Notes: generated by a model from the sequence alone, not told the origin. A stretch of DNA of 64,000 nucleotides from Dehalococcoidia bacterium (GCA_965218945.1 OZ244718.1:2621700-2685699), one strand, 5' to 3'. Shown: positions 10,295 through 53,779, counted from the stretch's first letter. Translations and numbers: made by a program.

Positions 10295-10296
10295 TT

Positions 10297-12637: not shown

Positions 12638-12649
12638 CGGATGCCTCCT

Positions 12650-12856
12650 CTAGTTCCAGGCGTGGGGGAAGGCGCCCTTGGTGCCCACCCGCCGCTGGAA
12701 CTCGTAGATGGTGTCGTCGCCCCGCGTGGTCTCCTTGACCGAGGCGTTGGCGATCTCCCCGTAGAAGTCGCTCAGCGTTGCCTTCACCTGGTCGACGCTC
12801 ATCTGGGGGTCCGGGTCGGGGAACTCTCTGTCGTCGTATACGAATACTCTTGCCAT
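12650..12856 (-). CDS. Ubiquitin-like beta-grasp protein (PRTRC protein C-like)
   Basis: ATG at 12856 with GAAAAGGAG upstream. 'MARVFVYDDREFPDPDPQMSVDQVKATLSDFYGEIANASVKETTRGDDTIYEFQRRVGTKGAFPHAWN'. It matches the remembered PRTRC-C pattern (F.Y.g..lpDPdP.ms.e.Vk..y...yp.i..A........y.F.r.vGtKG). Confidence 0.8.
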   Translation of the reverse strand: MARVFVYDDREFPDPDPQMSVDQVKATLSDFYGEIANASVKETTRGDDTIYEFQRRVGTKGAFPHAWN

Positions 12857-12950
12857 CGTTCTTCTCCTTTTCTTGCTTCGCGCTGTTTCGTTGCCACCTG
12901 CGGGGAGGCCGCCGCTCGATTTGGCGACGGCCTCCCCGTGTCCGTGCGGT

Positions 12951-15263
12951 CTAGCGTCCCGCGCCGACCGGCTCCTCATTTCCCTCCCGCTCCATGCTCA
13001 TCGCCCACTCGAACATCGAGAGGGTCGCGGGCTGCGACTTGCCCTTCCGACCGTTGGTCTTGACCGGCTCCTCGGCCATGAACTCCGTCCAGGAGAAGAG
13101 CGACTGGTGCCCCTCCTCCGACCCACCGTCGCGGTGGCCGTTGCCCCCGTATCCGGTACGGGGCAGGCCGTTACCGTTAACATCGACGGCCTCCGGCTCG
13201 ACCCCGTGTCGAGCACTGGGCAGGCTCTCGACCACCTTCCATCCGTCGTCCACCAGCAGCTCTTCGGCGCTGGCCTCGGCGTCCCTGGCCTGGGTGAACG
13301 CCGCCTCCACCGAATCTTGGTCATCGTCCTCTCCGCTGACGATCCTCCGGGCCAGGGCCAGCATCAGGTCGTCCCCGTCGTCTCCGTAGGCCGCCAGTCC
13401 GTCCTCCGGCAGCTCCCCCTCGACTGCCAGCGAGCTCTGCAGCTTCTTCGCCACCAGCTTTAGGGCGTCGGCCTGCAGGGTGTTCCGGTAGGCCATGAAC
13501 ACCACCTTCACCGGGCGGGTCTGCCCGATGCGCCACGACCGCCGCGACGCCTGCCGCATGACGTAGACCGAGTAATCCGTCTCGAACCAGCAGAGGGTCG
13601 GGAAGTCGATGAGGTCGAGGCCGGTCTGCACCAGCCTGGGGTGGCAGATCATCACGTCGATGCCCTGCTTGACCTTCTCCGCCACCCACGCCTCTCTCTT
13701 CTCCGGGGCCACCGCCTCGGCCTTCATCACTGCCACCCGGAAGCCGTGCCGGCTGAGCATGTCCTCCATCCTCCCCGTGATGTCCCTGGTCCCCGTGTGG
13801 GTGGCGTAGACCAGCACCCTTCGGCCCTCCATCCGCTCGGCGGCCACCAGGTCCACCAGGGCCTTCTCCTTTGGGTAGAGCTTCTCCTCGGACAGGGACG
13901 GAATCTGGACGATGATGTCGCCCGTCCGGGGGTCGAAGACCGTCTCCCCCCTGGTGCAGCCCTCGGGGTAGGCCAGGAGCGTCTGCAGGTAGGTCGCCAG
14001 CAGTCGCTTGGAGCCGGCCTTCAGCGCTTCCGCCAGCTTCTTTCTGAGCTCCTCGTACACGGTGTTGTAGGCGCTGCGCTGGGAGTAGCCCGTCGCGTCC
14101 TCCTCCGAGTCCATCGAGGACAGGAGGATCTGCTCGTCGTAGCCGGGCAGTCCCGACGCCACGTCCGAGAGACGCAGGAACACCGTGTTGCCGATGATGT
14201 GAAACAGGGCGCTGGGCACGAGGCCGGGCCGCTCCCTGACCACCCTGCGGAATTTGCGCCGGCGGCTGATGCGCCCGTCCTCCACCGCGTCGTCGTCCTT
14301 GCCGACGGTGACCTCCTCGAAGCCGTACCGCTGTATCCAGCGATGCTCCTCGGAGCGCCCGAACTCCGTCCTGATCTCCGGCGAGAACCGGTAGAGCAGG
14401 TGGAACAGCGTGCTCGAATACCCTCCCATCAGGGTTCCCGACAGGCTGAGGGACTTGCCGCAGGCGTCGGCGAGGACCCCTGCGGCGATGCCCTGGGCCG
14501 AGCCTCGGCCCTTGTACTCATGGACCTCGTCGCCAATGAGCAGGTCGAAGAAGCCCTTCATCCGGTTCTTCACGTAGTCGGCCAACGGGTAGCGGGCAGG
14601 GCCGGACCTGTCGGCCTGCCACAGAGGACCGCCGCAGTCGGCGCAGGTGTGCTTGCGGCGGTTCAGGTCGGCGTCCGTCAGTGGCACGCCGTCCCTGTCC
14701 ACGATCTGCGCCGTGCAGCCGGGGCAGCAGGGGACCCGGAAGGGCTCCCCCGTCTCCTCGCCCCGCAGCAGCCTGCCCCTGGAGACGGCCCACCGCTGGT
14801 TGACGGCGGGCATCCAGCGGTAGGACAGCTTCGCCTTCTCCCGCGACATGACGGCGAAGAGGGGGCCGGGGCCCGTGGAGAGACGGAGCCGCTCCAGGTC
14901 GGTGATGGATCTGACGATGACGGCGCGGGCGCCGGGCGCCGTCATCTCCACCTCCCGCTTCCACTTGGGCACGAGATGCGGCGGCCCCAGCACGAGGACC
15001 CGCTTGAAGCCCGCCATGTGCGCTGCGGCTACGGCGATGAAGGTCTTGCCCGTTCCCATCTCGCCGACGACGGTGGTGCCCCGGTGGACCTCGAGGGAGA
15101 GGGCCGCGCCCCTGATGGCGTCGGCCTGCGCCCCCAGGGGCTTGCGGAGCAGGCGGGGGAGCCTGCGGCCGTTCTCCGAGGGCCGGTAGAGGGGCGGGTA
15201 GGACTCCACCACTCTTCTGGCGATGGCGTCCCTGAACGTGTCGATGAACTCTCCGAGGTTCAT
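12951..15263 (-). CDS. SNF2-family helicase with an internal zinc ribbon
   Basis: ATG at 15263. Motif I is 'GEMGTGKT', motif II is 'IGDEVHEYKG', and the zinc ribbon is 'CCPGC...CADCGG'. A C-terminal helicase lobe reads 'VLVYATHTG...LVQTGLDL'. The N-terminal 132 aa of the long ORF look off-frame. Confidence 0.9.
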   Translation of the reverse strand: MNLGEFIDTFRDAIARRVVESYPPLYRPSENGRRLPRLLRKPLGAQADAIRGAALSLEVHRGTTVVGEMGTGKTFIAVAAAHMAGFKRVLVLGPPHLVPKWKREVEMTAPGARAVIVRSITDLERLRLSTGPGPLFAVMSREKAKLSYRWMPAVNQRWAVSRGRLLRGEETGEPFRVPCCPGCTAQIVDRDGVPLTDADLNRRKHTCADCGGPLWQADRSGPARYPLADYVKNRMKGFFDLLIGDEVHEYKGRGSAQGIAAGVLADACGKSLSLSGTLMGGYSSTLFHLLYRFSPEIRTEFGRSEEHRWIQRYGFEEVTVGKDDDAVEDGRISRRRKFRRVVRERPGLVPSALFHIIGNTVFLRLSDVASGLPGYDEQILLSSMDSEEDATGYSQRSAYNTVYEELRKKLAEALKAGSKRLLATYLQTLLAYPEGCTRGETVFDPRTGDIIVQIPSLSEEKLYPKEKALVDLVAAERMEGRRVLVYATHTGTRDITGRMEDMLSRHGFRVAVMKAEAVAPEKREAWVAEKVKQGIDVMICHPRLVQTGLDLIDFPTLCWFETDYSVYVMRQASRRSWRIGQTRPVKVVFMAYRNTLQADALKLVAKKLQSSLAVEGELPEDGLAAYGDDGDDLMLALARRIVSGEDDDQDSVEAAFTQARDAEASAEELLVDDGWKVVESLPSARHGVEPEAVDVNGNGLPRTGYGGNGHRDGGSEEGHQSLFSWTEFMAEEPVKTNGRKGKSQPATLSMFEWAMSMEREGNEEPVGAGR
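13144..13167 (-). repeat. Palindromic element copy a (CCTGCCCCGTACCGGATACGGGGG)
   Basis: 7-bp stem CCCCGTA/TACGGGG with a 5-nt loop. It lies in the C-terminal tail of the SNF2 helicase and is read as 'GLPRTGYGG'. Confidence 0.6.
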
Positions 15264-15442
15264 GTGAGTCGTCCTCCTTTTCCGTGGTGGGCCGGAGAAC
15301 GACGCCGGGAGCCGGGCGCACCACGCCCCCTGGCGGGGACGTTTCCGGTGCGACAAGCTCCTGGAAACGTCCCCAGGCTGTGGTTGAACGTGCGAGGGTC
15401 CCGCCGCAGACGGGCCTCGTGATGCGGCTCGGTGTGAGCCGT

Positions 15443-15652
15443 CTATGCGGCTTTCAGGGCCTCCCTGCGGGCGGCTTGTTCCGCCTTTGCCTCGTCGTAG
15501 CAGCGTCCGCTGAGGTGGTATGTCTTCACCGGGGAGGAGACGGCCCTGCCGTTCATGTCCAGGTCCACCGAGGCGGTCTGCATGGCGGGTTCGCCGGGAG
15601 CGATGGGCTGCCCGCACCGGGCGCAGGCGTCGAGGGTCATGGTCGTCTGCAT
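15443..15652 (-). CDS. Small Cys-containing protein (69 aa)
   Basis: 'LDACARCGQPI...HLSGRCYDEAK'. The 3' end plus downstream hairpin duplicate those of the methyltransferase gene. Confidence 0.45.
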   Translation of the reverse strand: MQTTMTLDACARCGQPIAPGEPAMQTASVDLDMNGRAVSSPVKTYHLSGRCYDEAKAEQAARREALKAA

Positions 15653-15767
15653 GTCTCAACCTCTCTTTCCTTCGTGGGGTGTTGGTTTTCCGTCCGAGCG
15701 GAGCGAGGCCCCGCGGGTTCCCGGTAGAGGGAAGGCGGGGCCTTGTGTGCGGCTCAGTGCGAGCCGT

Positions 15768-16805
15768 CTATGCTGCGATGTCGGTGATCTCGCCGCCGTA
15801 CAGGTCCAGGGCGACGACGGTGGTCGTGAGCTTCTCCCGGTGGACCTCCTTCTCCGGGGAGTCCTCCACCATGACCATCTCCTTCGAGGTCCTCCCCTTG
15901 ACCAGGATGCGCCGCCCGTCCGCTTCCAGGACGAGGTTGTCGAGGAAGCCCGCCGACACCAGCATCGCCATGTGGCCCCTTCTGAGGGGCATCAGTGGAC
16001 GGGTGCGGGTGTCCCTCGCGGGCCAGAGTGTGTCGGTGACCTCAGCGCTGGTCCACAATCCCGACCGCCGCGCCTCGGCAGCAGCAGCGACGGGATCGAC
16101 GGTGCGGGTGGTGAAGAGGATGTCCCCGCTGGGCGTGGTCTCCGGGCTGTAGTCCGTGTAGGGGTGGGAGCGCAGCGGCTCCGGCTCCCCCACCGCCCAC
16201 TCCAGCACCATGCGCTCGGCGTGGGCGTCGGGAACGGGATCGGCCTTCCGGTAGGCCAAGAGCGCCACCTGGTCGAATACCTGCCGCTCCGGGTCGGGGA
16301 AGGCCCAGCATCGCATATACCCGTAGTGGGTGGACAGGTAGCGGGCCGAGACCGCCAGGCGCTGCCTGGGAACGATGAAGACCAGCAGGCCGCCATCGGC
16401 CAAGTAGCGGGTCGTGTGCGTCAGGAAGGCGTGCTCCGTCCGCTTGTCCTCCGAGTCGTAATCGTAGGGCGGATTGAGCAAGAGCAGCCCGAAGGCCCCG
16501 TTCGCTATCGACGTGGCGAAGAGGTCCGAGGCCAGGGCGTGGTCGAGCCGCTCCTCCGCCTCCTGCGCCCGGTCCCGGTGCAGCTCGACGCCGTAGGTCT
16601 CGATGGGGATGGCGTTGGGCCTGTCCAGCCGCTGGGCCAGCTGCGCCAGCGCCTCTCCGGCCCCGCAGCACGGGTCGAGGATGCGCAGCGTGTTCCGGCC
16701 CCGGTTGTAGTAGCCGGAGGGGGTGTTAATCAGCTCCGCGATCAGGTCGACGACCCTGGGCGGTGTGGGGTAGAATCCGCCCTTTGCCTGTGCAGCGAGT
16801 CTCAT
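15768..16805 (-). CDS. SAM-dependent N6-adenine DNA methyltransferase
   Basis: Motif I is 'ILDPCCGAGE' and motif IV is 'LLLNPPYD'. The start overlaps the upstream stop (ATGA). Confidence 0.85.
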   Translation of the reverse strand: MRLAAQAKGGFYPTPPRVVDLIAELINTPSGYYNRGRNTLRILDPCCGAGEALAQLAQRLDRPNAIPIETYGVELHRDRAQEAEERLDHALASDLFATSIANGAFGLLLLNPPYDYDSEDKRTEHAFLTHTTRYLADGGLLVFIVPRQRLAVSARYLSTHYGYMRCWAFPDPERQVFDQVALLAYRKADPVPDAHAERMVLEWAVGEPEPLRSHPYTDYSPETTPSGDILFTTRTVDPVAAAAEARRSGLWTSAEVTDTLWPARDTRTRPLMPLRRGHMAMLVSAGFLDNLVLEADGRRILVKGRTSKEMVMVEDSPEKEVHREKLTTTVVALDLYGGEITDIAA

Positions 16806-17239
16806 GTCGATTCTCCTTTCAACTGAGTGTCGTCCGTCGTCTTCAGGCCCACCACCTCGCCTGTGCCCAGGGTCCGCTGGTAGCAGAGAACCTGGGGAGC
16901 GCCCATCTCCAGGGCGCAGGCCGTGCAGAAGGCCGTGACTATCTCCGCCTCCCTGGACACCGTCATGCGCCTAACCGGCATCTTGCCGCCGTCCGGCCTC
17001 CGGTGCGTGTAGAGCATCACCGAGGTGTCGGCGACCTCGTCGGGCGTGGCCGGCCTGTAGAAGTGGGGCTGGCCCGAGGTCGACAGGTGCGTTGTGTTGT
17101 CGTGGGGGCAGAAGGGGCAGAGCCTGCCCCGTACTAGATACGGGGTCTTCCCGTCGGGGGAGAACCTCTGCCACGCCCTGAAGTTCCGGGCCCGCCTGCG
17201 CCTGTTGCCCCGCCTGGGCCGGTTCAGCATCCTATCCAT
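16802..17239 (-). CDS. Small basic zinc-ribbon protein
   Basis: ATG at 17239 overlaps the upstream stop (ATGGATAG). The Cys pairs are 'CPFCPHD' and 'FCTAC'. It contains palindromic element copy b in-frame. Confidence 0.5.
   Translation of the reverse strand: MDRMLNRPRRGNRRRRARNFRAWQRFSPDGKTPYLVRGRLCPFCPHDNTTHLSTSGQPHFYRPATPDEVADTSVMLYTHRRPDGGKMPVRRMTVSREAEIVTAFCTACALEMGAPQVLCYQRTLGTGEVVGLKTTDDTQLKGEST
17123..17145 (+). repeat. Palindromic element copy b (CCTGCCCCGTACTAGATACGGGG)
   Basis: It lies inside CDS 16802-17239, antisense to the gene, and is read as 'KTPYLVRGR'. Confidence 0.6.
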
Positions 17240-17885
17240 CGCTCTCCTCCTCCCTGGGCAGGGTGAGCCGGCCCGAAGCCACCGCCAGGGAGAGGTCCTC
17301 CCTGAGCGTCTTCCCGTCTGGGCTGCACCGGTAGGCCGTGATGCCCACCGACTGGAGGGGGACTGTCTCCCCCGTGTCCAGTCCCCGTTGCCAGAGCCAC
17401 TCCGCCCAGGAGCCGTGCAGGGGCAGCGGGCTGCGATTGTCGAGGAAGCGGTGGTGCAGCGCGGGCGCTTCCTCCCCCGCCTGCGCCAGCAGCAGGAAGC
17501 TGTCCCGCTCGAATCCGTACTCGGCGGTCTTGGTGTATACGAGCGCGTGCCAGCCGCCGGAGACCGGCAACCGGGCGATCTTGGTCGTCCACGTTCCGAT
17601 AGTCTCGTGGGGAACGACGCACCGCTTGTAAGCGCCCGAGAGGGCCATGCCGTCCGCGCCCTCGATGATGTGGGCAACGTCCGGCGGCTGCTTGAGCAGG
17701 GATGCCCAAATCGCCTTGAGCGCCGTCTGGGAGCCGACCATCGAGACGAACCAGAGGCCGTCCGTCTCCTCGTCGCGGGCGAAGGCGTCGGCGGTTGCCG
17801 AGAAGCCCCCGGCGCTAATGGTGTACAGAACTTGCCCCGTACTCGATACGGGGGCTTCGGGGTCCATTGTGTGAGTCGCGAGCAT
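17232..17885 (-). CDS. Hypothetical protein (217 aa)
   Basis: Coding-like composition, translationally coupled to the next gene. It contains palindromic element copy c near its N-terminus. Confidence 0.5.
   Translation of the reverse strand: MLATHTMDPEAPVSSTGQVLYTISAGGFSATADAFARDEETDGLWFVSMVGSQTALKAIWASLLKQPPDVAHIIEGADGMALSGAYKRCVVPHETIGTWTTKIARLPVSGGWHALVYTKTAEYGFERDSFLLLAQAGEEAPALHHRFLDNRSPLPLHGSWAEWLWQRGLDTGETVPLQSVGITAYRCSPDGKTLREDLSLAVASGRLTLPREEESDG
17831..17854 (+). repeat. Palindromic element copy c (CTTGCCCCGTACTCGATACGGGGG)
   Basis: It lies inside CDS 17232-17885 and is read as 'APVSSTGQV'. Confidence 0.6.
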
Positions 17886-17999
17886 TGCGACCTCCTTGCG
17901 TGTGAGTTGGGAACGATGCGCGGGGAGCGCTCCCCGGCGTGAGAGCCCGACGGCGTGCGCCGTCCGGTCGTGGAGCGCCCGTCCCGTAGAGGAGGCGGG

Positions 18000-18509
18000 T
18001 CAGGGCATCAGCCCCCGTTCCTTGAGGCTGACGAACCGCTCGCCGCCGATGACCACGTGATCCAGCAGCTCGATGTCCAGCAATTTGCCCGCCTGGACCA
18101 GATCGCGGGTGAGGGCCGCGTCCTCGGGGCTAGGCGTCGGGTCCTGGCTGGGATGGTTGTGGCTGATAATGATGCTGGGGACGGCCTCGATGACCGCCGG
18201 GCGGAAGACCTCGGCATTCCTCACGATGGCCGAGGACACGTTGCCCTGGTAGATGACCCGCTGACCCACAACCTGGTTCCTGGCGTTGAGAAGCAGCACC
18301 CGCATCTGCTCCTGGGCCAGGGGAGCCATCTCCGGCCCCAGCAGCCTGCGCACGTCGTCGGGGCAGGAGATGACGGGTAGGTCTTCCGTGGGGCGCTCCG
18401 GGTGGAACTCCACGTCGTAGCGCGCCGCCAGCTCTCCCAGCAGGTTCAGGTTGCTGCGAAGCGCCTCAAGCAGCGCGGCGTCCTTGGTGGTGGTCTTCTT
18501 CATGGTCAT
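18000..18509 (-). CDS. radC: RadC-family JAB-domain protein
   Basis: 'IISHNHPSQDPTPSPEDAALTRDL...LLDHVVIG' is the canonical RadC JAMM motif. AAGGAGG lies 5 nt upstream of the ATG. Confidence 0.9.
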   Translation of the reverse strand: MTMKKTTTKDAALLEALRSNLNLLGELAARYDVEFHPERPTEDLPVISCPDDVRRLLGPEMAPLAQEQMRVLLLNARNQVVGQRVIYQGNVSSAIVRNAEVFRPAVIEAVPSIIISHNHPSQDPTPSPEDAALTRDLVQAGKLLDIELLDHVVIGGERFVSLKERGLMP

Positions 18510-18615
18510 GTCGGCCTCCTTCGCTATCGGTTGGAACAGAGGCGGGGCCGCCCCTGTGGAGGGAAGCGGCCCCGTGGGTGCGCCCTCGGGAAGGCGTCGC
18601 TATGGGGTTGTGGGA

Positions 18616-18993
18616 CTAGAAGGGAGAGGCGTCGTCCGCCTGACCGTCGTCGCCGTCGTCCTGCCCGCCGTTGCGGGAGTCGAGGAAGACGACCTCGGAG
18701 GCGTGAATCTCGGTGCGGTACCGTCGCTGTCCGTCGTCCCCCTCCCAGCTGTTCTGCACCAGACGTCCGGCCACGTACACCCGCTGGCCCTTGCCGACGT
18801 ACTGGTTCACCGCCTCGGCGGTCTTGCCCCAGACGACGATGCTGTGCCAGTCTGCCTCGGTCTCCCCGTCCTGGCGGCGGCGGTCGGTGGCCAGCCGCAG
18901 CTGAACGACGGCGGTGCCGTTCGGGGTGTACTTCATCTCGGGATCCGTGCCGACCCTGCCCAAGAGCTCTACCTTGTTGATGGTGCGTGCCAT
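18616..18993 (-). CDS. ssb: Single-stranded DNA-binding protein
   Basis: 'INKVELLGRVGTDPEMKYTPNGTAVVQLRLAT...WHSIVVWGKTAE...GKGQRVYVAGRL', with an acidic tail ending 'DDASPF'. Confidence 0.92.
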   Translation of the reverse strand: MARTINKVELLGRVGTDPEMKYTPNGTAVVQLRLATDRRRQDGETEADWHSIVVWGKTAEAVNQYVGKGQRVYVAGRLVQNSWEGDDGQRRYRTEIHASEVVFLDSRNGGQDDGDDGQADDASPF

Positions 18994-19108
18994 TTCGGTT
19001 CCTCCTTAATGTTCTGGCGCTGGCCTTGCCGCGCCCGGTTGAATGAGAGCGGGGCCGTCCCCTGTAGAAGAGGATGACGGCCCCGTCCAGCGTTCCCTAT
19101 GGGAGCGT

Positions 19109-20272
19109 CTAGCTGACCCGCAGGTACTCCGACTCGCTCTCGGTGACGATCTCGGCCCGGACGTCCGGGGCGAGCAGGTTGTTGAGCCGCTTGTAGTCCA
19201 CCGAGTAGCGGCGGGACTTCACCATGCCCACGGAGCGGGTCTTCTCCCGCCCTTCGAGTTTCGCCTTGTCCACGCCCTGCTGGCCCAGCCAGGCCCGGAG
19301 CCTCTCCACCACCCACCGCTTCTCGTCCTCGAACTCGCGGATGGTGTCCTGGATCTCCTCGTACTCGTGGAGGGCATTGCGCGCCTCCTCGTCGGTCACC
19401 GGCGCCGCGGGCTCGGCGGCGTCTGCGGGTTCCCCCTCGCCTTCGGCCTCCGCCGCCGTCCCAGGCAGGCAGACCGCCAGGAAGGGGCAGGACCGGCACT
19501 GCCAGCTGTCTGCGGAGAAGTCCCGCTCCGGCAGGGCGTCGGGGTCTGGCCCGTGCCGGACATGGTGGGCGGCGAGCTCCCCCAGCCACTCGCAGGCCCG
19601 CTCCAGGGCCTGTCCCAGCCGCTCGGCGGGGATGACCTCGTAGTCCCAAACCCTGTTGCCCGTGTCCAGGGTGGCGATGGCGGCGTCCCGCAGGTCGCCG
19701 TAGGTCCCCACCGTGTAGAGGGCTGCCTGGGCAACCGACGCCGGGTGGCTGCGCTCCGCGCCCAGGGCGCGCCACCGTTTGAACGCCTCCGGTCCCCTGG
19801 TCTTGACCTCGACGACCATCTCGTCGCCGTGGGCGGGAGCGGGGTCCTCCCCGAATAGGAACGTCTGCGCCGTGGATTCCGGGGCGGCGGCCTCGCCCAG
19901 GGGCTGGGGCATCCGGCCCGTGGCGTCGGGGTGTCCCGTCACCACCAGGGCCTGCCCCGTACCCGATGCCGGGTTCGGGCCGATGCGCACCGAGACCGCC
20001 TGCGGGTCCCGGGGGTCGGCGGGATTCACCCGCCACCCCGCCCGCTCCATCGCCCGCAGGACGACGGGTTCGAGGGCGTTGCCCGCCTCCATAGCCGTGA
20101 GCGACTCCTCGGTCGGCGGGTTGGTGGGTCCGTGGCCGGTCGCCGCGTACCAGAGAGCTCGGCGGCATCCCAGGGCAGCCGAGGCCCGTATTTCGAGCTG
20201 CCCGTCCTCGCCGAAGCGGGCGTTGGGACGGGAGTAGACTTCCGCCCTGTTGTGGTCAATCGTCGTCGTCAT
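19109..20272 (-). CDS. PD-(D/E)XK nuclease of the Cas4/RecB type with a 4-Cys cluster
   Basis: ATG at 20272. An N-terminal Cys ('LGCRRALWY'), 'VVEVKTR', and C-terminal 'WQCRSCPFLAVC' are present. Palindromic element copy d lies mid-gene. Confidence 0.8.
   Translation of the reverse strand: MTTTIDHNRAEVYSRPNARFGEDGQLEIRASAALGCRRALWYAATGHGPTNPPTEESLTAMEAGNALEPVVLRAMERAGWRVNPADPRDPQAVSVRIGPNPASGTGQALVVTGHPDATGRMPQPLGEAAAPESTAQTFLFGEDPAPAHGDEMVVEVKTRGPEAFKRWRALGAERSHPASVAQAALYTVGTYGDLRDAAIATLDTGNRVWDYEVIPAERLGQALERACEWLGELAAHHVRHGPDPDALPERDFSADSWQCRSCPFLAVCLPGTAAEAEGEGEPADAAEPAAPVTDEEARNALHEYEEIQDTIREFEDEKRWVVERLRAWLGQQGVDKAKLEGREKTRSVGMVKSRRYSVDYKRLNNLLAPDVRAEIVTESESEYLRVS
19951..19973 (+). repeat. 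Palindromic element copy d, degenerate (CCTGCCCCGTACCCGATGCCGGG)
   Basis: It lies inside the Cas4-like nuclease CDS and is read as 'PASGTGQAL'. The right arm is mutated. Confidence 0.45.
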
Positions 20273-20385
20273 GTCGCTATCCTCCTTTGTCCTTTGTCCT
20301 GCAAATGTCCTGTAAATGGGAAGCGGGGCCGCCCCCGTTGGAGACAGCCCCGCTCGATTCCACGCTCTCGATTGTCGGCAGCCGT

Positions 20386-20787
20386 TCATGCGGCCTTCGC
20401 TTCCACCGCCTGCGCCGCCTCTCGCTCCTCCGTGGCCTTCAGGTGCGCCTTGAGGACGTGCGCTATCCCGTCGCCGAGGCCGAGGACCGCCACGCTCCTG
20501 CCGTCGGGCATCCGGTTGAAGAAGGGCTGCATCTCCTGAATCCCCCGGCACTGGTCGATGATTTCCTCGACCGGCGTACCTCTCCGCAGGTGCAGGGAGA
20601 TCAGCCGGCAGGCCAGCTCGGTGACGCCGTGCTGGAAGCTGCCTCCCTTGCCCAGCCAGCCGAAGACCTCGAAGGGCTCGCCGTCCTCGTCCGTCGAGAC
20701 GGTCACGTAGAGGTTGCCGAACTCCGTCTGGAGCTTGGTCGTCGTGCTGGGCAGGCTGCGGGGCCTGGGCCGTGTCGTCGCGGTCAT
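20386..20787 (-). CDS. Stand-alone TSCPD-like domain protein lacking the family cysteines
   Basis: ATG at 20787 (ATGA overlap). 'FGNLYVTVSTDEDGEPFEVFGWLGKGGSFQHG..ELACRLISLHLRRGTPVEEIIDQCRGI' resembles the RNR C-terminal TSCPD domain. Confidence 0.65.
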   Translation of the reverse strand: MTATTRPRPRSLPSTTTKLQTEFGNLYVTVSTDEDGEPFEVFGWLGKGGSFQHGVTELACRLISLHLRRGTPVEEIIDQCRGIQEMQPFFNRMPDGRSVAVLGLGDGIAHVLKAHLKATEEREAAQAVEAKAA

Positions 20788-21290
20788 GGCCTGCCCCCTT
20801 CCGCCCGGCAGAGCGGGAGCGTCCGGCTGCACTCGACGGCCTCCAGCCTCCCGTAGGCCCGCGCCATCCCGGCGTCGCCCACGAAGGACTCGGCCTCGAC
20901 GCGGGTGTCGAACCGCTCGAAGGTGTCCGTCCCGTAACCTCCCCAGTGGGCGACGGCGTGGTAGTGTAGGCCGGGCGAGCAGCTGCGGAGGTATGGGAGC
21001 GCCGGAGCGTACCGGTCGAAGTAGCCCGCGACCTTGAGGGCCATCTCCCGCTCCCCCTCGTCGCCCAGTCCCAGAAGCGTCCTGACGATGGGCTCCTCGC
21101 AGTCCTCCTCGGCGAAGGTCGGGGTCAGCATTGCGTCCCGGACGCAGCCGGGCAGCGAGTTCCACCGCTCCCGGCTGAGCTTCAGCCCGCCGTGGCTGGC
21201 GGTGGACACCCGCCAGACGCCCTCGGCCAGTTCCTCGATGTCCTGGGGAGGCCCCCAGGGCGTGTGCATCGTCGTTGTCATGGTTGTCAT
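20784..21290 (-). CDS. Conserved-looking hypothetical protein ('TPWG...STASHGGLKL')
   Basis: 168-aa ORF with GGAGG upstream. I remember an N-terminal motif of this kind from plasmid/ICE proteins of unknown function. Confidence 0.55.
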   Translation of the reverse strand: MTTMTTTMHTPWGPPQDIEELAEGVWRVSTASHGGLKLSRERWNSLPGCVRDAMLTPTFAEEDCEEPIVRTLLGLGDEGEREMALKVAGYFDRYAPALPYLRSCSPGLHYHAVAHWGGYGTDTFERFDTRVEAESFVGDAGMARAYGRLEAVECSRTLPLCRAEGGRP

Positions 21291-21383
21291 GGCTCGTAAC
21301 CTCCTTGTCCTGTAAATGGAGAGCGGGGTCGTCTCTTTCGGGGCGGCCCCGCTCGATTCCGAACCCGGCGATGGACCGGCCGG

Positions 21384-22166
21384 CTAGGCCGCCTTCGCCT
21401 GCTGCGCCTCTTTCGCCTCCTGGAGCTTATTGGCGGCGGCCTCCACCAGGGGAACCAGCTCCGCGGCCGTCAGGTCGTCGAGGTCCTTGCCCGTCCGGTC
21501 CGTGACGGCGCTCCGCACCTTGTCCTCGTCGAGGCCCTGCTCGGCGGCGATCTCGATGAGCCGCTTGCGCAGCGCCTTGGCCTGTGCGGGAGCGCGCTGG
21601 GGGCGGGAGGCACCGCCGTTTCTGGCCGTCTGCCTGGCGGCGGTCTGCTGGGCCTTGGGCTCCTCCTCCGGCTGGTCGCCGTAGAAGCCGTTGCCGAACT
21701 GGACGCCGAAGCTCCTGAGCGCCCGCTTCATGCCGTCCGTCACGGAGCCCTTGATGGCGGTCTCGTGACCCTCGGCGTTGTCCTCGGCCACGGCGTTGAA
21801 CCCGATGTCGGTGCGGGGCGGCGCGCCGGGGACGGTGACCCGCACCGGGGCGCTGTAGAACTGGATGCGCTTCACCTCGCCGGTCTTCGTATCGACGTTC
21901 TCGATCTCCCGCAGGGTCGCGTCGCCTGCCAGCTCGTAGCCCCAGCCGCCGAAGCCGAATATCCGGTTGGCCTGGTCGATGACGACGTGGCCCTCCAGGT
22001 AGTCATAGGTGCGCCCGGCGCGGCCCTTGCGCTGGGAGACCAGCGCGGGGTCGAGGGGTTGCCCCAGGGCGTCCGTGACGGCTGGCGATAGCCCGTCCCA
22101 GAGCAGCTCGTGCGTCGCGTCAAGCGCGGCGTCGTGTCCGTTGTTGTGTCCGTTCCTGTTCACCAT
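21384..22166 (-). CDS. Rad52/Rad22-type single-strand annealing protein
   Basis: 'YDYLEGHVVIDQANRIFGFGGWGYE...VRVTV...TDIGF......KGSVTDGMKRALRSFG.QFGN'. Confidence 0.85.
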   Translation of the reverse strand: MVNRNGHNNGHDAALDATHELLWDGLSPAVTDALGQPLDPALVSQRKGRAGRTYDYLEGHVVIDQANRIFGFGGWGYELAGDATLREIENVDTKTGEVKRIQFYSAPVRVTVPGAPPRTDIGFNAVAEDNAEGHETAIKGSVTDGMKRALRSFGVQFGNGFYGDQPEEEPKAQQTAARQTARNGGASRPQRAPAQAKALRKRLIEIAAEQGLDEDKVRSAVTDRTGKDLDDLTAAELVPLVEAAANKLQEAKEAQQAKAA

Positions 22167-22343
22167 GTCTGTCTCCTTCTTTGTGGTGTGTTCCTGTAGC
22201 GAATGGCCGGTGCGGTTTCCCTCTATGGGAAGCCGTGGGCGGGCGGAGCCCGTCGCGCATTGGGCATAGAACCTCCTGTGCGGTGATAGTGGGGAAGGGT
22301 GAATGGCGGGCGAGGGAGCCCGCCGACGAGCGGCGGGGAGCCG

Positions 22344-23399
22344 CTAGCGGGCGGAGCGGGCCGCCCGGTCAAGCAGGCGCAGGAGGAGGGCACGCCCCCG
22401 GGGATGCGCCGCAAGCTCGCCCACGTCGCCGACGCCCTGGGGTAGGGTGACGGCAGCGGCCCGGCGTCCAAGCAAGCCCGCAAGCCGCTCGGTGGCCTCA
22501 AGGCCAGCGTCGTCGTTGTCGAAGGCGAGGAAGACGCGGGGGCAGCCCCGCAGGCCCTCCGCCACCTTGTCGACTCCCTGGGTGCCCAGTGCTGCGACTG
22601 CGAGGAGTCCCCAGCCTGCAAGGGCAAGCCAGTCGAAGACCCCCTCCGCCAAGACCACCCAGGGAGGCGCAACCCCAAGACGCCCAAGCCCCAGCGCCGG
22701 CTTGGGGCCGGGCAACGCCTGGAACCGGGGCGTCCGGTCGGGGTCTATGGCCCGGCCCACGAGCCAGCGGACGAGGCCGCCGGAGAGGTCGGGCACGACC
22801 ACCGTCCCGGCGAACCGCTCTGTGCCCTGGGCCATGAACAGCCCGGAGTCCCTGAGACGCTTCTTGGAGAAGCCCTGGGACTCCAGGGCCTGCCGCAGCC
22901 CGCTGCCCGGCGCGTAGCCGAGGCCCAGGCGGGCGGCGGCGGCGGGGCCGACGCCCCGGGAGGCCAGGTACTCCTGAGCCTCGGATTCGAGACGCAGTTG
23001 TCCGGCGTAGAAGCGCGCCGCCACCGTCAGCAGGTTGGGGTCGCGGGGTGGCAGCGCCGCGGCCTCCGGAGGTTGCCGCGGGTCGGCTGGACGGTTGGCG
23101 GCCTTGGGCGCAAGACCTGGGCCGCCGTCCAGCCGCGCGATGGCTTCGGGGAGCGTCAGGTCCTCCATGCGCCGCACGAAGTCCAGCACGTCACCTCCCT
23201 CGCCGCACCCGAAGCAGTAGAACCGCTCCGTATCGCCGTACACCGTGAAGCTGCCCTCCGCCTCGTCGTGGAAGGGGCAGACGCCCTGTCGGACCCTGCC
23301 TCTTCCCTTGAGCCGCACGCCCGCCGCCTCCACCGTGTCTCCCAGGGGGTGCCGGGACTTCAGCGCGTCCAGGTCCACCTGGTCGCCGGCCGCTAGCAT
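22344..23399 (-). CDS. DnaG-like primase (CHC2 zinc finger plus Toprim)
   Basis: 'GVCPFHDEAEGSFTVYGDTERFYCFGCGEGGDVLDFV' is the CHC2 finger. Toprim-like 'VVLAEGVFDWL' and 'FLAFDNDDAG' follow. Confidence 0.85.
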   Translation of the reverse strand: MLAAGDQVDLDALKSRHPLGDTVEAAGVRLKGRGRVRQGVCPFHDEAEGSFTVYGDTERFYCFGCGEGGDVLDFVRRMEDLTLPEAIARLDGGPGLAPKAANRPADPRQPPEAAALPPRDPNLLTVAARFYAGQLRLESEAQEYLASRGVGPAAAARLGLGYAPGSGLRQALESQGFSKKRLRDSGLFMAQGTERFAGTVVVPDLSGGLVRWLVGRAIDPDRTPRFQALPGPKPALGLGRLGVAPPWVVLAEGVFDWLALAGWGLLAVAALGTQGVDKVAEGLRGCPRVFLAFDNDDAGLEATERLAGLLGRRAAAVTLPQGVGDVGELAAHPRGRALLLRLLDRAARSAR

Positions 23400-23851
23400 G
23401 ACGGGCGTCCATCGAGAGGTCTAAGACCCCGCAGGCTCCGGCGAGACAGGACCATGCCCGTCTGCCAGCGCATCCCCAGCGTCGCCACCACCTCCAGGAC
23501 GTCGTCCCTTCGCCTCAGGAGCACGGCCGCACGCCCCGCTCCCTGGGAGTAGAGCAGAGCGTTGCAGCCACGGAATCGCCGCCTTGCTATGTCCAGCCAC
23601 TCGGAGTAGGCCCAGCGCACCTCGCCGCTGGTGGCATCCGTCGCATCCAGCATTGCCAGGGTCCGCAGCGCACCGTCCAGGTCGCCGGCCTGCCGTCTCT
23701 TTCGTGCCTCGTGAACGGCCTTTGCAACGTGTCGAATCCCGGCCTTGCGGATGTGCAGGCACTCCAATACCCTGTCCACCAGCTCCTCCAGGTGTCGGTC
23801 GTGGCCGCCTTCCTGCGCCGGTGTTTCGTTGCTCGCTGCCAGTGTGGTCAT
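23393..23851 (-). CDS. Hypothetical protein, first gene of the long minus-strand block
   Basis: 152-aa ORF with AAGGAGG upstream of the ATG at 23851. It overlaps the primase start by 7 nt. Confidence 0.5.
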   Translation of the reverse strand: MTTLAASNETPAQEGGHDRHLEELVDRVLECLHIRKAGIRHVAKAVHEARKRRQAGDLDGALRTLAMLDATDATSGEVRWAYSEWLDIARRRFRGCNALLYSQGAGRAAVLLRRRDDVLEVVATLGMRWQTGMVLSRRSLRGLRPLDGRPSC

Positions 23852-24288
23852 CGTGTCCTCCTTGCCAATCTATGTATGGTGGTGTCCGATTTTCCGGTAG
23901 TCCGCCTTGTGGGTTTCTGTCCTTTCGTGAAGTTGCACCTCCTTGTCAAATTACTTATCGCCAGAAGCCGGCATCGCTTGGCAGGGGCATGTAGCCGGTG
24001 ATCTCGAGACGCGCGCGCCTCTCCCTCGGTGGGATGCCGGACAGTGAATGGAGAGTGCAGGCAAGAGGGTGGCGAATCGAGGGGTAATGGACGCAGCTCG
24101 GCCCAGTATCATCCAGGGACTATGGGGTTTGGGGAGCTGCGAGACGTGAGGCGGCCAGCCTGCTTCTCAGTCGCAGACCGGCGCGTGTTGGAGCTGCGGC
24201 CTAGTGATTCCCAGCCATGCCGCAGGCATGTCGAAGCGGCCGGGGCGACAGAGCCGCTCCGACCGACTGTTGAGGACGAAACGCAAAG

Positions 24289-24313
24289 CCTGCCCCGTAC
24301 TCGATACGGGGGG
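24289..24313 (+). repeat. Palindromic element copy e (CCTGCCCCGTACTCGATACGGGGGG)
   Basis: Intergenic, about 30 bp left of the iteron array. Confidence 0.6.
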
Positions 24314-24340
24314 CGCTCCGTTCCCGATGTCCAGCGGATG

Positions 24341-24530
24341 GAGCGATCAACCCCAACCGCCAGATCGGTGTCCAGCGACTGAAGCGATCAACGCCAACTC
24401 GCCGGACGGGCGCCGGACGGGTGAAGGACCAACGTCAAACTTCAACCGCCGGACTGGGCCAAGGACGAAGGATCAATGTCAACTCCGTCGATTCGGCCCG
24501 CGCTGGTTGCGAAGGACCAACGTCAAACTC
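24341..24530 (+). repeat. Five iteron-like direct repeats, GA(T/C)CAA(C/T)(G/C)(T/C)CAA(A)C
   Basis: Cores start at 24345, 24386, 24427, 24471 and 24515, giving spacings of 41, 41, 44 and 44 bp. Units 3 and 5 are identical over 'gaaggaccaacgtcaaact'. A tandem 'gccggacgg' x2 lies at 24401-24420. Confidence 0.6.
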
Positions 24531-24743
24531 CGCATCGCCAGCATTCCCTCGTGGGCGACCATTCGATCTGACCCGTGCAACAGGGATCACGCACCCAGGT
24601 TTCTATGGTCGGAAACCTTGGAAAAAGCCTAATAGCGCACCCATTATTGCCGCGCCCGCAAACCACGGGTGAGGGCCTACAGCCCCCCTCCGGAATATTG
24701 CCGCCAAAGTGTTCACAACTAAGCCGGCGCACTCCCGGCCCAT

Positions 24744-30118: not shown

Positions 30119-30137
30119 AGAAAAGGAATCTACCGAA

Positions 30138-38834: not shown

Positions 38835-39038
38835 TAGCTTCACGCCCAGTGACCTCCTCAATCTTTTACCACACAAATTACCACATTGTTGGCGAGACAA
38901 CAAGGGCTTTTGGGGGTAAGCGAGGGAGGCCGAATTCAGCCAAGTTAAGCCTTGTGTACACCTAACCTAGCTATGAAACAGAGGCATATTGAGACGTGTG
39001 CTGACCGATGGAGAATGGAGGAGACGGGGAGGGGAAAG

Positions 39039-53575: not shown

Positions 53576-53756
53576 AGATTTAGAACACTCCGATGTGACT
53601 GTGACTTAGCGGTTAGTATAGCAAAGCGGGATTGGGGCTACAAGGAACGCGGCCTTGATGGATGCTCATGCGCGGAGGGTGGTCGCTCCGCACCTCCCCT
53701 GGATGCCCGTTTGCACGGGCATGACGTGGTAAAGGGATACATCACTCCCGAGAAAG

Positions 53757-53779
53757 CCCACCCCGTACCTGATACGGGG
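53757..53779 (+). repeat. Palindromic element copy f (CCCACCCCGTACCTGATACGGGG) in host DNA
   Basis: It lies in the gatB/GNAT divergent intergenic region, outside the island. Confidence 0.55.

What the first reader, a model, noticed from the sequence alone, without database searches (positions are those of the whole stretch)
13144..24313. A 23-nt palindromic element (CCTGCCCCGTA-N5-TACGGGG) occurs five times in the island, four times in-frame inside different CDSs
**Copies.** They lie at 13144-13167 (minus orientation), 17123-17145, 17831-17854, 19951-19973 (degenerate) and 24289-24313. All share the core '(C/T)CTGCCCCGTAC(T/C)NGATACGGGG', a 7-bp stem with a 5-nt loop.

**Location.** Four copies lie inside unrelated protein-coding genes: the SNF2 tail, the zinc-ribbon protein, a hypothetical protein's N-terminus and the middle of the Cas4-like nuclease. 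There they are translated as short G/P/T-rich inserts (PRTGYGG, PYLVRGR, PVSSTGQ, PASGTGQ) in places likely to tolerate insertions. This resembles in-frame palindromic mini-elements such as Rickettsia RPEs, but much shorter.

**Alternative explanations.** They could be a protein-binding site, or ssDNA hairpins (for example primase or ssi signals) on the transferred strand. The element encodes its own DnaG-like primase, and four of the five copies share one orientation.
Basis: seen in the sequence. Interest (0 to 1): 0.6.

Follow-up and report, generated by a model that had tools for sequence, protein, structure and literature searches.

The report
Tiny mobile hairpin inserted into genes
The repeated palindrome is a 24-base mobile DNA hairpin that drops cleanly, without disturbing the reading frame, into genes and into other repeat elements, and the same 24 bases turn up in bacteria from about nine phyla with no known enzyme to move them.

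Summary
The window has seven copies, not five: five intact and two degenerate. Six lie in an integrated conjugative element (ICE). One is chromosomal, between gatB and thrS.

The unit is exactly 24 nt, AGCCTGCCCCGTACNNGATACGGG, always followed by G. Alignments with related ICEs and with protein homologues show clean 24-nt (8-codon) presence/absence at seven independent sites. These include the Zn-ribbon, hypothetical and Cas4-like genes of the window and two primase sites in relatives. There is no target duplication. The empty site is usually (C/A)AG|G.

One syntenic ICE has no copy, so the motif is not an ICE operator, oriT or primase signal.

About two thirds are Dehalococcoidia/Chloroflexota. 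The rest include Syntrophaceae, Pseudoxanthomonas isolates, Nitrospira, Saprospiraceae and a CPR bacterium. Many copies sit inside the loops of CGTC-type REP hairpins or in-frame in transposases and housekeeping genes.

I read it as a REP/RPE-like selfish mini-element with a new 5' tag (AGCCTG), probably moved in trans as single-stranded DNA. That mechanism is inferred: no RAYT or IS200 gene is linked to it.

The parts
13146..13169 (-). 24-nt unit GGCCTGCCCCGTACCGGATACGGG, sense orientation, in frame in the C-terminal tail of the SNF2-like helicase (peptide GLPRTGYG)
   Evidence: The tail is a variable Asn/Gly-rich linker ahead of a conserved C-terminus. Relatives L116 and L119 carry units at other places in the same tail.
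13203..13226 (-). Degenerate 24-nt unit AGCCTGCCCAGTGCTCGACACGGG, same frame and 57 nt upstream in the SNF2 tail (SLPSARHG). Pair 7 changed on both sides, A-T to G-C.
   Evidence: L116 has an intact unit aligned at this place.
17121..17144 (+). 24-nt unit AGCCTGCCCCGTACTAGATACGGG, antisense to its host gene, in frame in the Zn-ribbon protein (PYLVRGRL between DGKT and CPFC)
   Evidence: Protein family alignment shows an exact 8-residue presence/absence. At this place L119 holds an exact 24-nt insert relative to L120: GAAGAC[...]CTGCCGC.
17829..17852 (+). 24-nt unit AACTTGCCCCGTACTCGATACGGG, antisense, in frame at codons 12-19 of a hypothetical protein (PVSSTGQV)
   Evidence: L001 has it at the same site. 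L063 lacks exactly 24 nt there (GAACAG|GGCTTC).
19949..19972 (+). Degenerate 24-nt unit GGCCTGCCCCGTACCCGATGCCGG, antisense, in frame in the Cas4-like (four-Cys, no Pfam hit) protein (PASGTGQA)
   Evidence: L063 lacks exactly 24 nt there (CTTCAG|GTTCGG).
24287..24310 (+). Intact 24-nt unit AGCCTGCCCCGTACTCGATACGGG in the spacer 23852-24743, which has lower G+C and no gene-like ORF
   Evidence: L119 has an independent copy, with different flanks, in the corresponding spacer. L120 has none.
53755..53778 (+). Chromosomal 24-nt unit AGCCCACCCCGTACCTGATACGGG in the gatB/thrS divergent spacer. It sits in the loop of a host hairpin, ACTCCCGA-GAA|G-TCGGGAGT (53744-53787).
   Evidence: Removing the unit leaves a perfect 8-bp hairpin with a GAAG loop (-8.1 kcal/mol).
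12951..15659 (-). Host gene: SNF2/ResIII-Helicase_C protein. The ORF is given as listed; the true start is probably internal.
16802..17239 (-). Host gene: Zn-ribbon protein of 145 aa, member of a conserved family (416 database hits)
17232..17885 (-). Host gene: hypothetical protein of 217 aa. The start at ATG 17885 is supported by conservation of MLAT.. in L001 and L063.
19109..20551 (-). Host gene: Cas4-like protein. The ORF is given as listed; the true start is probably internal.

Best explanation
The motif is a selfish, non-autonomous mobile DNA element of the REP/RPE kind. I call it an 'AGCCTG-tagged' palindromic repeat.

**What is shown.**
- The unit is exactly 24 nt, 5'-AGCCTG-CCCCGTA-CNNGA-TACGGG-3'. 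The G that follows it in the target completes a 7-bp stem.
- It appears or disappears as a clean 24-nt block with no target-site duplication. The empty site is usually (C/A)AG|G.
- It is 3n long and has no stop codon in any of the six frames for most loop variants. It therefore survives inside coding sequences as an 8-residue insert.
- It also nests in the loops of other repeat hairpins, including CGTC-type REPs.
- The ICE in this window is a host that has collected seven... more exactly six copies, and the chromosome beside it holds one. The motif is not a working part of the ICE.

**What is inferred.**
- The architecture is a conserved single-stranded 5' tag, then a hairpin whose stem covaries while the tag stays fixed, with seamless insertion at a very short target.
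- By analogy with REP/RAYT and IS200/IS605 elements, I think a trans-acting enzyme excises and inserts the unit as single-stranded DNA. An HUH/Y1-type transposase is the likeliest candidate.
- That enzyme has not been identified.
For: **Significance in the window.** Five perfect copies against 0.02 expected. Seven copies within 3 mismatches against none within 4 in the null.

**Clean 24-nt presence/absence at seven independent sites.**
- Primase site a, filled in L063.
- Primase site b, filled in L105.
- Cas4-like gene, filled in the window.
- Second copy in the SNF2 tail of L116.
- Hypothetical protein N-terminus.
- Zn-ribbon gene, L119 against L120 with near-identical flanks. At protein level the same holds across the family, including near-identical pairs that differ only by the 8 residues.
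- In-frame in IS5-family (RRLSK[SLPRTRYG]DYE), IS66 and IS630 transposases.

**Empty sites.** Deleting the 24 nt from filled sites gives sequences found elsewhere: 176 matches with 0-5 mismatches over 36 nt. They include orthologous coding sites and canonical REP hairpins. The junctions are mostly AG|G.

**Boundaries.** Positions -4 to -1 (AGCC) are 90-98% conserved in 137 unique copies, although the search pattern did not require them. Nothing is conserved beyond +20.

**Structure.** Stable single-stranded DNA hairpins. Nine compensatory pair changes among variant copies, at pairs 1, 6 and 7.

**Distribution.** The titles cover about nine phyla, cultured Pseudoxanthomonas isolates, and loci with G+C from 0.35 to 0.72.

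**Not an ICE function.** L120, syntenic and 87% identical to L119, has no copy.

**Precedent.** Intragenic in-frame REPs and REPs nested in other palindromes are documented (PMC3733652; PMC6006769).
Against: **No mobilising enzyme found.**
- 137 ORFs next to copies show no enriched Pfam family and no Y1_Tnp.
- That RAYT is flanked by its own GTAG REP, not by this unit.

**Defining REP features absent.** The unit has neither the GT[AG]G nor the CGTC tag.

**Unlike RAYT-linked REP families.** Each tnpA_REP gene is reported to pair with its own REP family, and some REP families are species-specific. This one is identical across phyla, which fits poorly with that co-evolving picture.

**Weak points in the single-strand model.**
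- The idea that the CCTG tail pairs with the CAGG target is my own. Copies with a CTTG tail use the same AG|G target, so tail-target covariation does not support it.
- Gain by insertion cannot be told from loss by precise excision at any single site.
- No transposition event has been observed.
Confidence: 0.72

Rival explanations
1. The motif is a cis-acting site of the ICE itself: an operator for an HTH repressor, or single-stranded hairpins (ssi or primase signals, oriT-like nic sites) on the transferred strand.
For: - Six of the seven copies lie in the ICE, in the operon that holds ssb, radC, a Rad52-like gene and a DnaG-like primase.
- GCCTG|C resembles the IncP-type nic core ATCCTG|C. That resemblance is from my own knowledge and is only a lead.
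- Four of the six share one orientation.
Against: - The syntenic ICE L120 has no copy in 20 kb.
- Related ICEs carry copies at different, non-homologous places.
- One window copy is chromosomal.
- Most copies in other genomes are in chromosomal REP arrays, transposases and housekeeping genes.
- The stem covaries. That would not be expected for a fixed double-stranded operator.
Confidence: 0.03
2. The unit is kept because it works as an RNA hairpin (terminator, mRNA stabiliser or binding site of a conserved RNA-binding protein). Its spread is secondary.
For: - Twelve G-T (G-U) wobble changes among variant stems.
- REPs are thought to act as RNA elements in some species (PMC3733652).
- The sequence is highly conserved across phyla.
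Against: - No orientation bias relative to transcription: 54 sense against 48 antisense.
- Both orientations and all six frames occur inside coding sequences.
- No U-tract follows the hairpin.
- No Rfam family matches at gathering threshold.
- This reading does not explain the exact 24-nt insertions.
Confidence: 0.1
3. It is a minimal DDE-type MITE, or a footprint left by excision of a larger transposon with AGCCTGCCCCGTA termini.
For: A few loci extend the palindrome to 12-15 bp. An example is L020, AGAGCTTGCCCCGTA..TACGGGGGCAGGCTCT.
Against: - No target-site duplication at any of the resolved junctions.
- The unit is asymmetric: 13 nt on the left against 6-7 nt on the right.
- No longer element with these termini was seen in about 0.95 Mb of loci.
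- 24 bp is too short for two double-stranded transposase binding sites. That is an inference.
Confidence: 0.05
4. It is a conserved protein motif, a chance similarity, or an assembly or adapter artefact of metagenome bins.
For: - Most hits are MAGs.
- Some Zn-ribbon homologues share the peptide at the same place.
Against: - Three different frames are used in this window, and six overall.
- Copies occur in cultured Pseudoxanthomonas isolates and in long-read complete chromosomes.
- Copies sit inside taxon-typical genes, such as a Saprospiraceae hybrid kinase at 35% G+C.
- Chance expectation for the 19-base pattern in 596 Gb is about 4 by my own calculation for even composition. More than 143 were observed.
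Confidence: 0.01

Closest known systems
REPs (repetitive extragenic palindromes), GTAG- and CGTC-tagged super-families (Di Nocera et al. 2013, PMC3733652)
   Same: - A 20-40 bp stem-loop with an unpaired tag at one end, a 6-9 bp stem and a 4-5 nt loop.
- Many dispersed copies.
- Subfamilies with complementary stem changes.
- Some units lie entirely inside ORFs, in frame.
- Some families are inserted in other small palindromes, for example T. roseum GTAG-23.
- The CGTC class also has no dedicated transposase.
   Different: - The tag is AGCCTG, not GT[AG]G or CGTC.
- The same 24 nt recurs unchanged in about nine phyla, whereas many REP families are confined to one or a few species.
- Here the unit is itself nested inside the loops of CGTC-type REPs.
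- The junctions are resolved to one or two bases: seamless, and preferring AG|G.
Rickettsia palindromic elements (RPE), especially the short RPE-4 and RPE-6
   Same: Palindromic selfish DNA inserted in frame in protein-coding genes, in places that tolerate extra residues.
   Different: - Unrelated sequence.
- RPE-1 is over 100 bp, and RPE-4 and RPE-6 are CGTC REPs.
- RPEs are confined to Rickettsia and relatives.
- This unit is 24 nt, occurs in free-living bacteria of many phyla, and sits on a conjugative element.
REPIN/RAYT (REPtron) systems
   Same: A hairpin plus a conserved 5' single-stranded tag is the substrate type of RAYT (TnpA_REP). These are non-autonomous elements presumed to be moved in trans by a single-copy gene.
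   Different: - No RAYT flanked by this unit was found.
- The only RAYT in the loci has its own GTAG REP.
- Units occur mostly as singlets, not as inverted doublets. Adjacent copies share orientation in 39 pairs against 12.
IS200/IS605 family (IS608, ISDra2) and their TnpA-less derivatives (PATEs)
   Same: - Seamless insertion without target duplication next to a very short specific target.
- Dependence on DNA hairpins.
- Precise 'empty' alleles.
- An expected preference for DNA that passes through a single-stranded stage.
   Different: - Those elements have two different subterminal hairpins and carry tnpA and/or tnpB, or are at least 100 nt long.
- Here one 24-nt hairpin is the whole element and no tnpA is linked to it.
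- The weak strand bias seen here puts the AGCCTG strand on the C-rich strand.
Bacterial MITEs (Correia/NEMIS, Nezha, RUP, ERIC)
   Same: Short, non-coding, multi-copy, sometimes intragenic.
   Different: MITEs are 70-300 bp with 15-30 bp terminal inverted repeats and target duplications. This unit is 24 nt and makes no duplication.

Membership tests
REP (repetitive extragenic palindrome), broad sense | Short (20-40 bp) stem-loop repeat present in many dispersed copies per genome | tested here: met
   - 24 nt, with a 7-bp stem and a 5-nt loop.
- Seven copies in 64 kb here.
- At least 15 copies each in two Dehalococcoidia MAGs within a truncated scan, including seven in one 8-kb stretch.
REP, GTAG or CGTC super-family | Unpaired GT[AG]G or CGTC tetranucleotide at one end of the stem-loop | tested here: not met
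   The unpaired 5' tag is AGCCTG in 90-98% of 137 unique copies. Neither strand has GTAG or CGTC at the foot of the stem.
REPtron (REP + RAYT) | A RAYT (Y1 HUH transposase) gene flanked by copies of the same REP | tested here: not met
   - No Y1_Tnp among 137 neighbouring ORFs.
- One RAYT in about 0.95 Mb of loci, flanked by a different GTAG REP.
- Whole genomes could not be searched, so a distant single-copy gene is not excluded.
RPE-like intragenic palindromic elements | Insertion inside functional ORFs that keeps the reading frame, shown by homologues lacking the insert | tested here: met
   Exact 24-nt or 8-residue indels in the Zn-ribbon, hypothetical, Cas4-like, primase (two sites), SNF2, IS5, IS66 and IS630 genes.
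RPE (Rickettsia) sequence families | Sequence similarity to RPE-1 to RPE-8 and restriction to Rickettsiales | not tested
   - No RPE sequence was compared directly.
- The literature places RPE-4 and RPE-6 in the CGTC class, whose tag this unit lacks.
- No Rickettsiales appear among the 118 loci.
IS200/IS605-type single-strand transposition | No target-site duplication; seamless junctions | tested here: met
   All resolved junctions are seamless.
IS200/IS605-type single-strand transposition | Insertion next to a specific tetra- or pentanucleotide that is recognised by pairing with a guide 5' of the hairpin foot | tested here: inconclusive
   - The target is biased to (C/A)AG|G, with +1 = G at nearly all sites.
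- CAGG is the complement of the CCTG tail.
- Copies with a CTTG tail use the same target, so there is no covariation.
IS200/IS605-type single-strand transposition | Two distinct subterminal hairpins and a tnpA (Y1) gene, or derivation from such an element | tested here: not met
   The whole unit is a single hairpin. No IS200-like TnpA was found in the loci.
IS200/IS605-type single-strand transposition | Orientation bias with respect to the replication fork (lagging-strand template) | tested here: inconclusive
   - The AGCCTG strand lies on the locally C-rich strand in 72 of 112 loci (binomial p = 0.003).
- There is no bias with respect to transcription.
- Loci are not independent, and local skew over 8 kb is a crude proxy.
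MITE (DDE-mobilised) | Terminal inverted repeats of 15-30 bp and a target-site duplication | tested here: not met
   The unit is asymmetric with arms of at most 7 bp, and there are no duplications.
Known structured RNA families (Rfam 15) | Match at gathering threshold | tested here: not met
   Only tRNAs and 23S rRNA were found in the window plus ten loci.

The most novel reading that the evidence does not exclude
The unit may be the smallest autonomous-looking substrate of DNA transposition yet seen. It is a single 24-nt hairpin that serves as both ends of the element. An enzyme family not yet linked to REPs would move it seamlessly as single-stranded DNA. The element or its enzyme would spread between phyla on conjugative elements such as the one in this window, which would explain why the 24 nt are identical from Chloroflexota to Bacteroidota and CPR bacteria. 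Being 3n long and open in all six frames would then be an adaptation that lets it colonise coding sequence.
Probability: 0.35. Interest if true: 0.8.

Novelty: new variant of a known kind. Interest (0 to 1): 0.62.

Why it matters
**For mobile-DNA biology.**
- REP-type repeats are abundant, but how they move is still largely inferred. The CGTC class has no known enzyme at all.
- This family offers unusually clean material:
  - an exactly defined 24-nt unit;
  - many filled and empty allele pairs;
  - a short target;
  - occurrence in cultured Pseudoxanthomonas.
- A biochemical search for the mobilising enzyme, and a test of single-strand transposition with a one-hairpin substrate, therefore become practical.

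**For evolution.** One identical sequence across about nine phyla raises the question of how a non-coding 24-mer is kept unchanged.

**For annotation.**
- The unit adds 8-residue G/P/T/R-rich inserts to real proteins, such as primase, ValRS and transposases.
- It also creates spurious ORFs.
- Genome annotators and protein-family builders would benefit from recognising it.

**For this window.** It removes a false lead. The palindromes are passengers, not control sites of the conjugative element.

Tried and rejected
- **Phage or plasmid identity of the island.** Megablast of 24 kb found nothing in the phage and plasmid collections.
- **Motif in annotated plasmids and phages.** blastn of a 31-mer gave one weak Niveispirillum plasmid hit and no phage hit.
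- **Motif in IMG/VR.** The scan found only two contigs. The unit is therefore not a plasmid or phage signature.
- **Rfam.** No family matched at gathering threshold.
- **Literature.** No paper in the library holds the motif or any of its six peptides. Two broader searches found only general REP literature.
- **Search for the enzyme.**
  - All-against-all clustering of 4083 ORFs from the loci: the largest family occurs in 8 of 118 loci.
  - Pfam on 137 neighbouring ORFs: no enrichment.
  - Regex and jackhmmer for RAYT and IS200 TnpA: one RAYT, with its own GTAG REP.
  - Inverted pairs of units flanking a small gene: none convincing.
- **Crossover models.** I worked by hand through serine-recombinase and IS110-like models that share a core dinucleotide. 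They predict junctions (xAG-CCTG.., ..GGG-AG-Gy) that differ from those observed, so I rejected them.
- **Two-base AG target duplication.** Rejected because AG is not repeated at the right end.
- **Guide-target pairing (CCTG with CAGG).** Kept only as speculation, since tail variants do not change the target.
- **T-loop or tRNA-like reading of the CTCGA loop.** Dropped because the two middle loop bases vary freely.
- **One Pfam call failed** on wrong coordinates. Two calls exceeded size limits.

Full report

Yes. CCCCGTA-N5-TACGGGG occurs five times without mismatch in the 64-kb window, at 13145, 17127, 17835, 24293 and 53761. Dinucleotide-preserving shuffles predict 0.02.

I then scanned with the extended consensus AGCCTGCCCCGTACNNGATACGGGG.
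- Exactly seven sites have 3 or fewer mismatches at the 23 specified positions.
- Twenty Markov-simulated windows gave none with 4 or fewer.

It missed two.
- A perfect copy at 53755-53778.
- A degenerate copy at 13203-13226 on the minus strand. It lies 57 nt from the 13146-13169 copy, in the same reading frame. Its stem pair 7 is changed on both sides, A-T to G-C.

As single-stranded DNA the intact copies fold into the 7-bp/5-nt hairpin at -7.6 to -9.6 kcal/mol.

**2. Context**

Bases 1 to about 39,000 (G+C 0.68) are an integrated conjugative element (ICE).
- Tyrosine integrase at 37695-38903, next to a tRNA at 39039-39111.
- VirB4/TraC-like, VirB6/TrbL-like and coupling-protein genes, and a Replic_Relax protein.
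- A long minus-strand operon (9476-25679). It holds a ThiF/JAB/E2/ubiquitin-like cassette, an SNF2-like helicase, a DUF6094 methyltransferase, RadC, SSB, a Rad52-like protein and a DnaG-like primase.

The remainder of the window (G+C about 0.60) is chromosome. It includes gatB (52082-53575) and thrS (54729-56492).

Six copies are in the ICE. The seventh is in the gatB/thrS spacer. The motif is therefore not confined to the island.

**3. What the unit is**

Five loci found through the motif (L001, L063, L085, L105, L116) and two found through a protein homologue (L119, L120) are related ICEs. They share 70-87% nucleotide identity with the window or with each other. Aligning them site by site gives clean 24-nt indels.

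| Site | Filled in | Empty in |
|---|---|---|
| Primase, site a | L063 | window, L105 |
| Primase, site b | L105 | window, L063 |
| Cas4-like gene | window | L063 (CTTCAG\|GTTCGG) |
| SNF2 tail, second copy | L116 | L001, window |
| Hypothetical protein N-terminus | window, L001 | L063 |
| Zn-ribbon gene | L119 (and window) | L120 |

- At the hypothetical protein site the proteins read MLATEYTLDPEA|LFTISAGG in L063 and MLATHTMDPEA[PVSSTGQV]LYTISAGG in the window.
- At the Zn-ribbon site the flanks of L119 and L120 are nearly identical: GAAGAC[CCCGTATCCAGTACGGGGCAGGCT]CTGCCGC. This fixes the unit as AGCCTGCCCCGTACNNGATACGGG inserted at CAG|GTC. A one-base slide to the left cannot be excluded.

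The Zn-ribbon ORF is a real protein family with 416 database relatives. Its alignment shows an exact 8-residue presence/absence between DGKT and the first Cys pair.
- Near-identical pairs differ only by the insert (P0022/P0083, P0033/P0091).
- One member has a second insert, PVSSTGQA, elsewhere in the protein.

No junction shows a target-site duplication. All seven window copies are followed by G and preceded by AG, AA or AC.

**4. Distribution**

I scanned one genome per species (GTDB) with TGCCCCGTACNNGATACGGGG.
- For even base composition I calculate about four chance matches in 596 Gb.
- By record title, about two thirds of the stretches are Dehalococcoidia or other Chloroflexota. Two such MAGs have many copies each, and one 8-kb stretch holds seven.
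- The rest are titled Syntrophaceae and other Desulfobacterota, Pseudoxanthomonas (including three cultured isolates), Methylococcales, Nitrosomonadales, Burkholderiales, Rhodospirillales, Nitrospira, Brocadiaceae, Saprospiraceae, Endomicrobiia, Entotheonella and a Portnoybacteria bin.
- Locus G+C ranges from 0.35 to 0.72.

The four bases upstream of the pattern (AGCC) are 90-98% conserved although the search did not require them. The two before them (AG) are 75-79% conserved. Nothing is conserved downstream.

The unit is essentially absent from annotated plasmids and phages, and rare in IMG/VR.

**5. Where it inserts**

I removed the 24 nt from each filled site and searched for the joined flanks. 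This gave 176 matches with 0-5 mismatches over 36 nt.

Many are canonical repeat hairpins.
- CCGTCATTCCCGCGAAG|GCGGGAACCCA. This has the CGTC tag, 8-bp stem, 4-nt loop and CCA tail that Di Nocera et al. describe for CGTC REPs.
- CCCTCTCCCTCAG|GGAGAGGG.
- GGGAGAGGGTTAG|GGTGAGGG.
- CTTCGACAGGCTCAG|GGCGAACGG.

The unit is thus often nested at the 3' edge of the loop of another repeat. The chromosomal copy in this window does the same in a local hairpin, ACTCCCGA-GAA|G-TCGGGAGT.

Other matches are orthologous coding sites (L012/L044/L112, L047/L059, L087/L114).

Pfam on ORFs that contain a unit finds real proteins.
- IS630-, IS5-, IS66- and DDE_5-type transposases.
- ValRS (in a Pseudoxanthomonas MAG), a UvrD-like helicase, PdxS and a hybrid kinase receiver domain.

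All six frames are open for most loop variants. They give LPRTxYG, CPVxDTG, APYxIRG, PVSSTGQ, PYxVRGR and RIxYGAG.

In the one frame where a CTTGA loop would create TGA, the coding copies I examined use CTGGA, CCGGA or CTCGA. Two IS5 copies with CTTGA are the exception, and there the transposase frame is interrupted.

**6. Structure versus sequence**

Among additional variant copies in the same loci:
- Stem pairs 6 and 7 switch to G-C on both sides several times (CCCCGGA..TCCGGGG, CCCCGTG..CACGGGG), and pair 1 switches once. That is nine compensatory changes in all.
- There are 12 wobble and 28 disruptive changes. The disruptive ones are presumably decaying copies.

A fixed single-stranded tag followed by a stem that covaries is the layout of REPs, with their GTAG or CGTC tags. 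It is also the layout of the hairpins recognised by HUH/Y1 enzymes.

**7. How it most likely works**

*Shown:*
- The unit is gained or lost as an exact 24-nt block.
- There is no duplication.
- The target is short and G-flanked.
- It enters coding and non-coding DNA, in many lineages.
- It is dispensable for the ICE, because L120 has none.

*Inferred:*
- It is moved in trans as single-stranded DNA by a hairpin-recognising nuclease-ligase, most plausibly an HUH/Y1 transposase of the RAYT/IS200 kind.
- Hairpin loops, and an ICE that is transferred as a single strand, would be exposed targets for such an enzyme.

*Weak or unsupported:*
- CAGG, the commonest empty site, is the complement of the CCTG tail. 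That would recall IS608 guide-target pairing, but copies with a CTTG tail use the same target.
- The AGCCTG strand lies on the locally C-rich strand in 72 of 112 loci (p = 0.003). There is no bias relative to transcription (54 against 48). This may be a replication-strand effect, but the loci are not independent.

*Against the HUH idea:*
- No Y1 gene is linked to the unit.
- The only RAYT in the loci has its own GTAG REP.

**8. Rivals**

| Rival | Why it is rejected or ranked low |
|---|---|
| ICE operator, ssi or oriT-like role | L120 has no copy; copies sit at non-homologous places in relatives; chromosomal and cross-phylum copies exist |
| RNA-level function | Does not explain exact insertion; no orientation bias; no Rfam match |
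| DDE-type MITE or excision footprint | No duplications; the unit is asymmetric |
| Protein motif, chance or artefact | Multiple frames used; present in isolates; sits inside taxon-typical genes |

**9. Comparison with what is known**

The closest class is REPs. They are 20-40 bp, carry an end tag, are sometimes intragenic and in frame, and are sometimes nested in other palindromes (PMC3733652; PMC6006769). The Rickettsia RPEs are the classic in-frame case.

This family differs in four ways.
- Its tag is different.
- The same sequence occurs in about nine phyla.
- It nests inside CGTC REPs.
- Its junctions are resolved and seamless.

It fails the defining GTAG/CGTC and REPtron tests. I therefore do not file it in those families, only in the broader REP-like kind.

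No paper in the searchable library contains the motif or its peptides.

**10. Verdict**

Its ICE-specific alternatives are wrong.
- It is a new variant of a known kind.
- Interest is moderately high. The unit is exactly defined, the phylogenetic spread is unexplained, and the mobilising enzyme is unknown.

Noticed in passing
window 1-39111: The island is an integrated conjugative element. It has a tyrosine integrase (37695-38903, -) beside a tRNA (39039-39111, -), VirB4-like (29814-32414), VirB6/TrbL-like (26664-27632), coupling-protein-like (34073-35011) and Replic_Relax (35008-36660) genes. It also carries a ThiF/JAB/E2/ubiquitin-like cassette (9476-12979, -). G+C drops from 0.68 to 0.60 at about 37-39 kb. 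The left end is not in the window.
   Followed up: partly
window 41-7804 (+): A 2587-residue ORF with LRR, fibronectin-III and Calx-beta repeats, so probably a surface protein. The relatives L119 and L120 have fn3-rich giant ORFs at the corresponding flank.
   Followed up: partly
window 16820-17256 versus L001 1226-1285: The whole Zn-ribbon gene (about 436 nt) is missing from the otherwise collinear ICE in L001, where 59 nt take its place. The gene is present in L119 and L120.
   Followed up: no
L003, L052, L074, L100 and other Dehalococcoidia loci: Dense arrays of CGTC-type REPs (CCGTCATTCCCGCGAAGGCGGGAACCCA) and of GGGAGAGGGTTAGGGTGAGGG-type and CTTCGACAGGCTCAGGGCGAACGG-type repeats, with and without the 24-nt unit nested in them. 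These arrays produce long spurious ORFs (for example SFPRKREPIPS repeats in L074).
   Followed up: partly
L081 2297-2943: A RAYT-like gene (HxH and YxxxNP motifs) flanked by inverted copies of a classic GTAG REP, GTAGGGGCGGTTCGCGAACCGCCCCTAC, with a further copy of that REP at 2572-2599, inside the span of the RAYT ORF. This is a textbook REPtron in a Dehalococcoidia MAG that also holds the AGCCTG unit 4.3 kb away.
   Followed up: partly
L088 (Nitrospira MAG), minus strand, rc position about 4702: One copy lacks the AGCC tag and is flanked by an 8-bp direct repeat: TTGACATT-TGCCCCGTACTTGATACGGGG-TTGACATT. It sits in AT-rich DNA just upstream of a gene start. It is the only case seen that looks like a target duplication.
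   Followed up: no
L107 (Methyloprofundus chromosome) 857-1040, 2665-2840, 3594-3788, 4755-4926: MITE-like long-hairpin repeats of about 180 nt. Three copies carry the 24-nt unit near their centre and one paralogue does not.
   Followed up: partly
P0038 (Zn-ribbon family): One homologue carries two 8-residue inserts from the same DNA unit in two different frames: PYPVRGRL after DGET, and PVSSTGQA after YQRN.
   Followed up: no
112 loci: The strand carrying AGCCTG is the locally C-rich strand in 72 of 112 loci (p = 0.003). Orientation relative to neighbouring or host genes is even (54 against 48). This is possibly a replication-strand bias, but it is confounded by shared repeat backbones.
   Followed up: partly
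L011 86-152, L007 about 5470-5660, L093 rc 882-930: Tandem forms of the unit. L011 has two copies with a 46-nt period and identical spacers. L007 has composite REP-plus-unit arrays. L093 has two units joined head to tail (..ACGGGGCCTGCCCC..).
   Followed up: no
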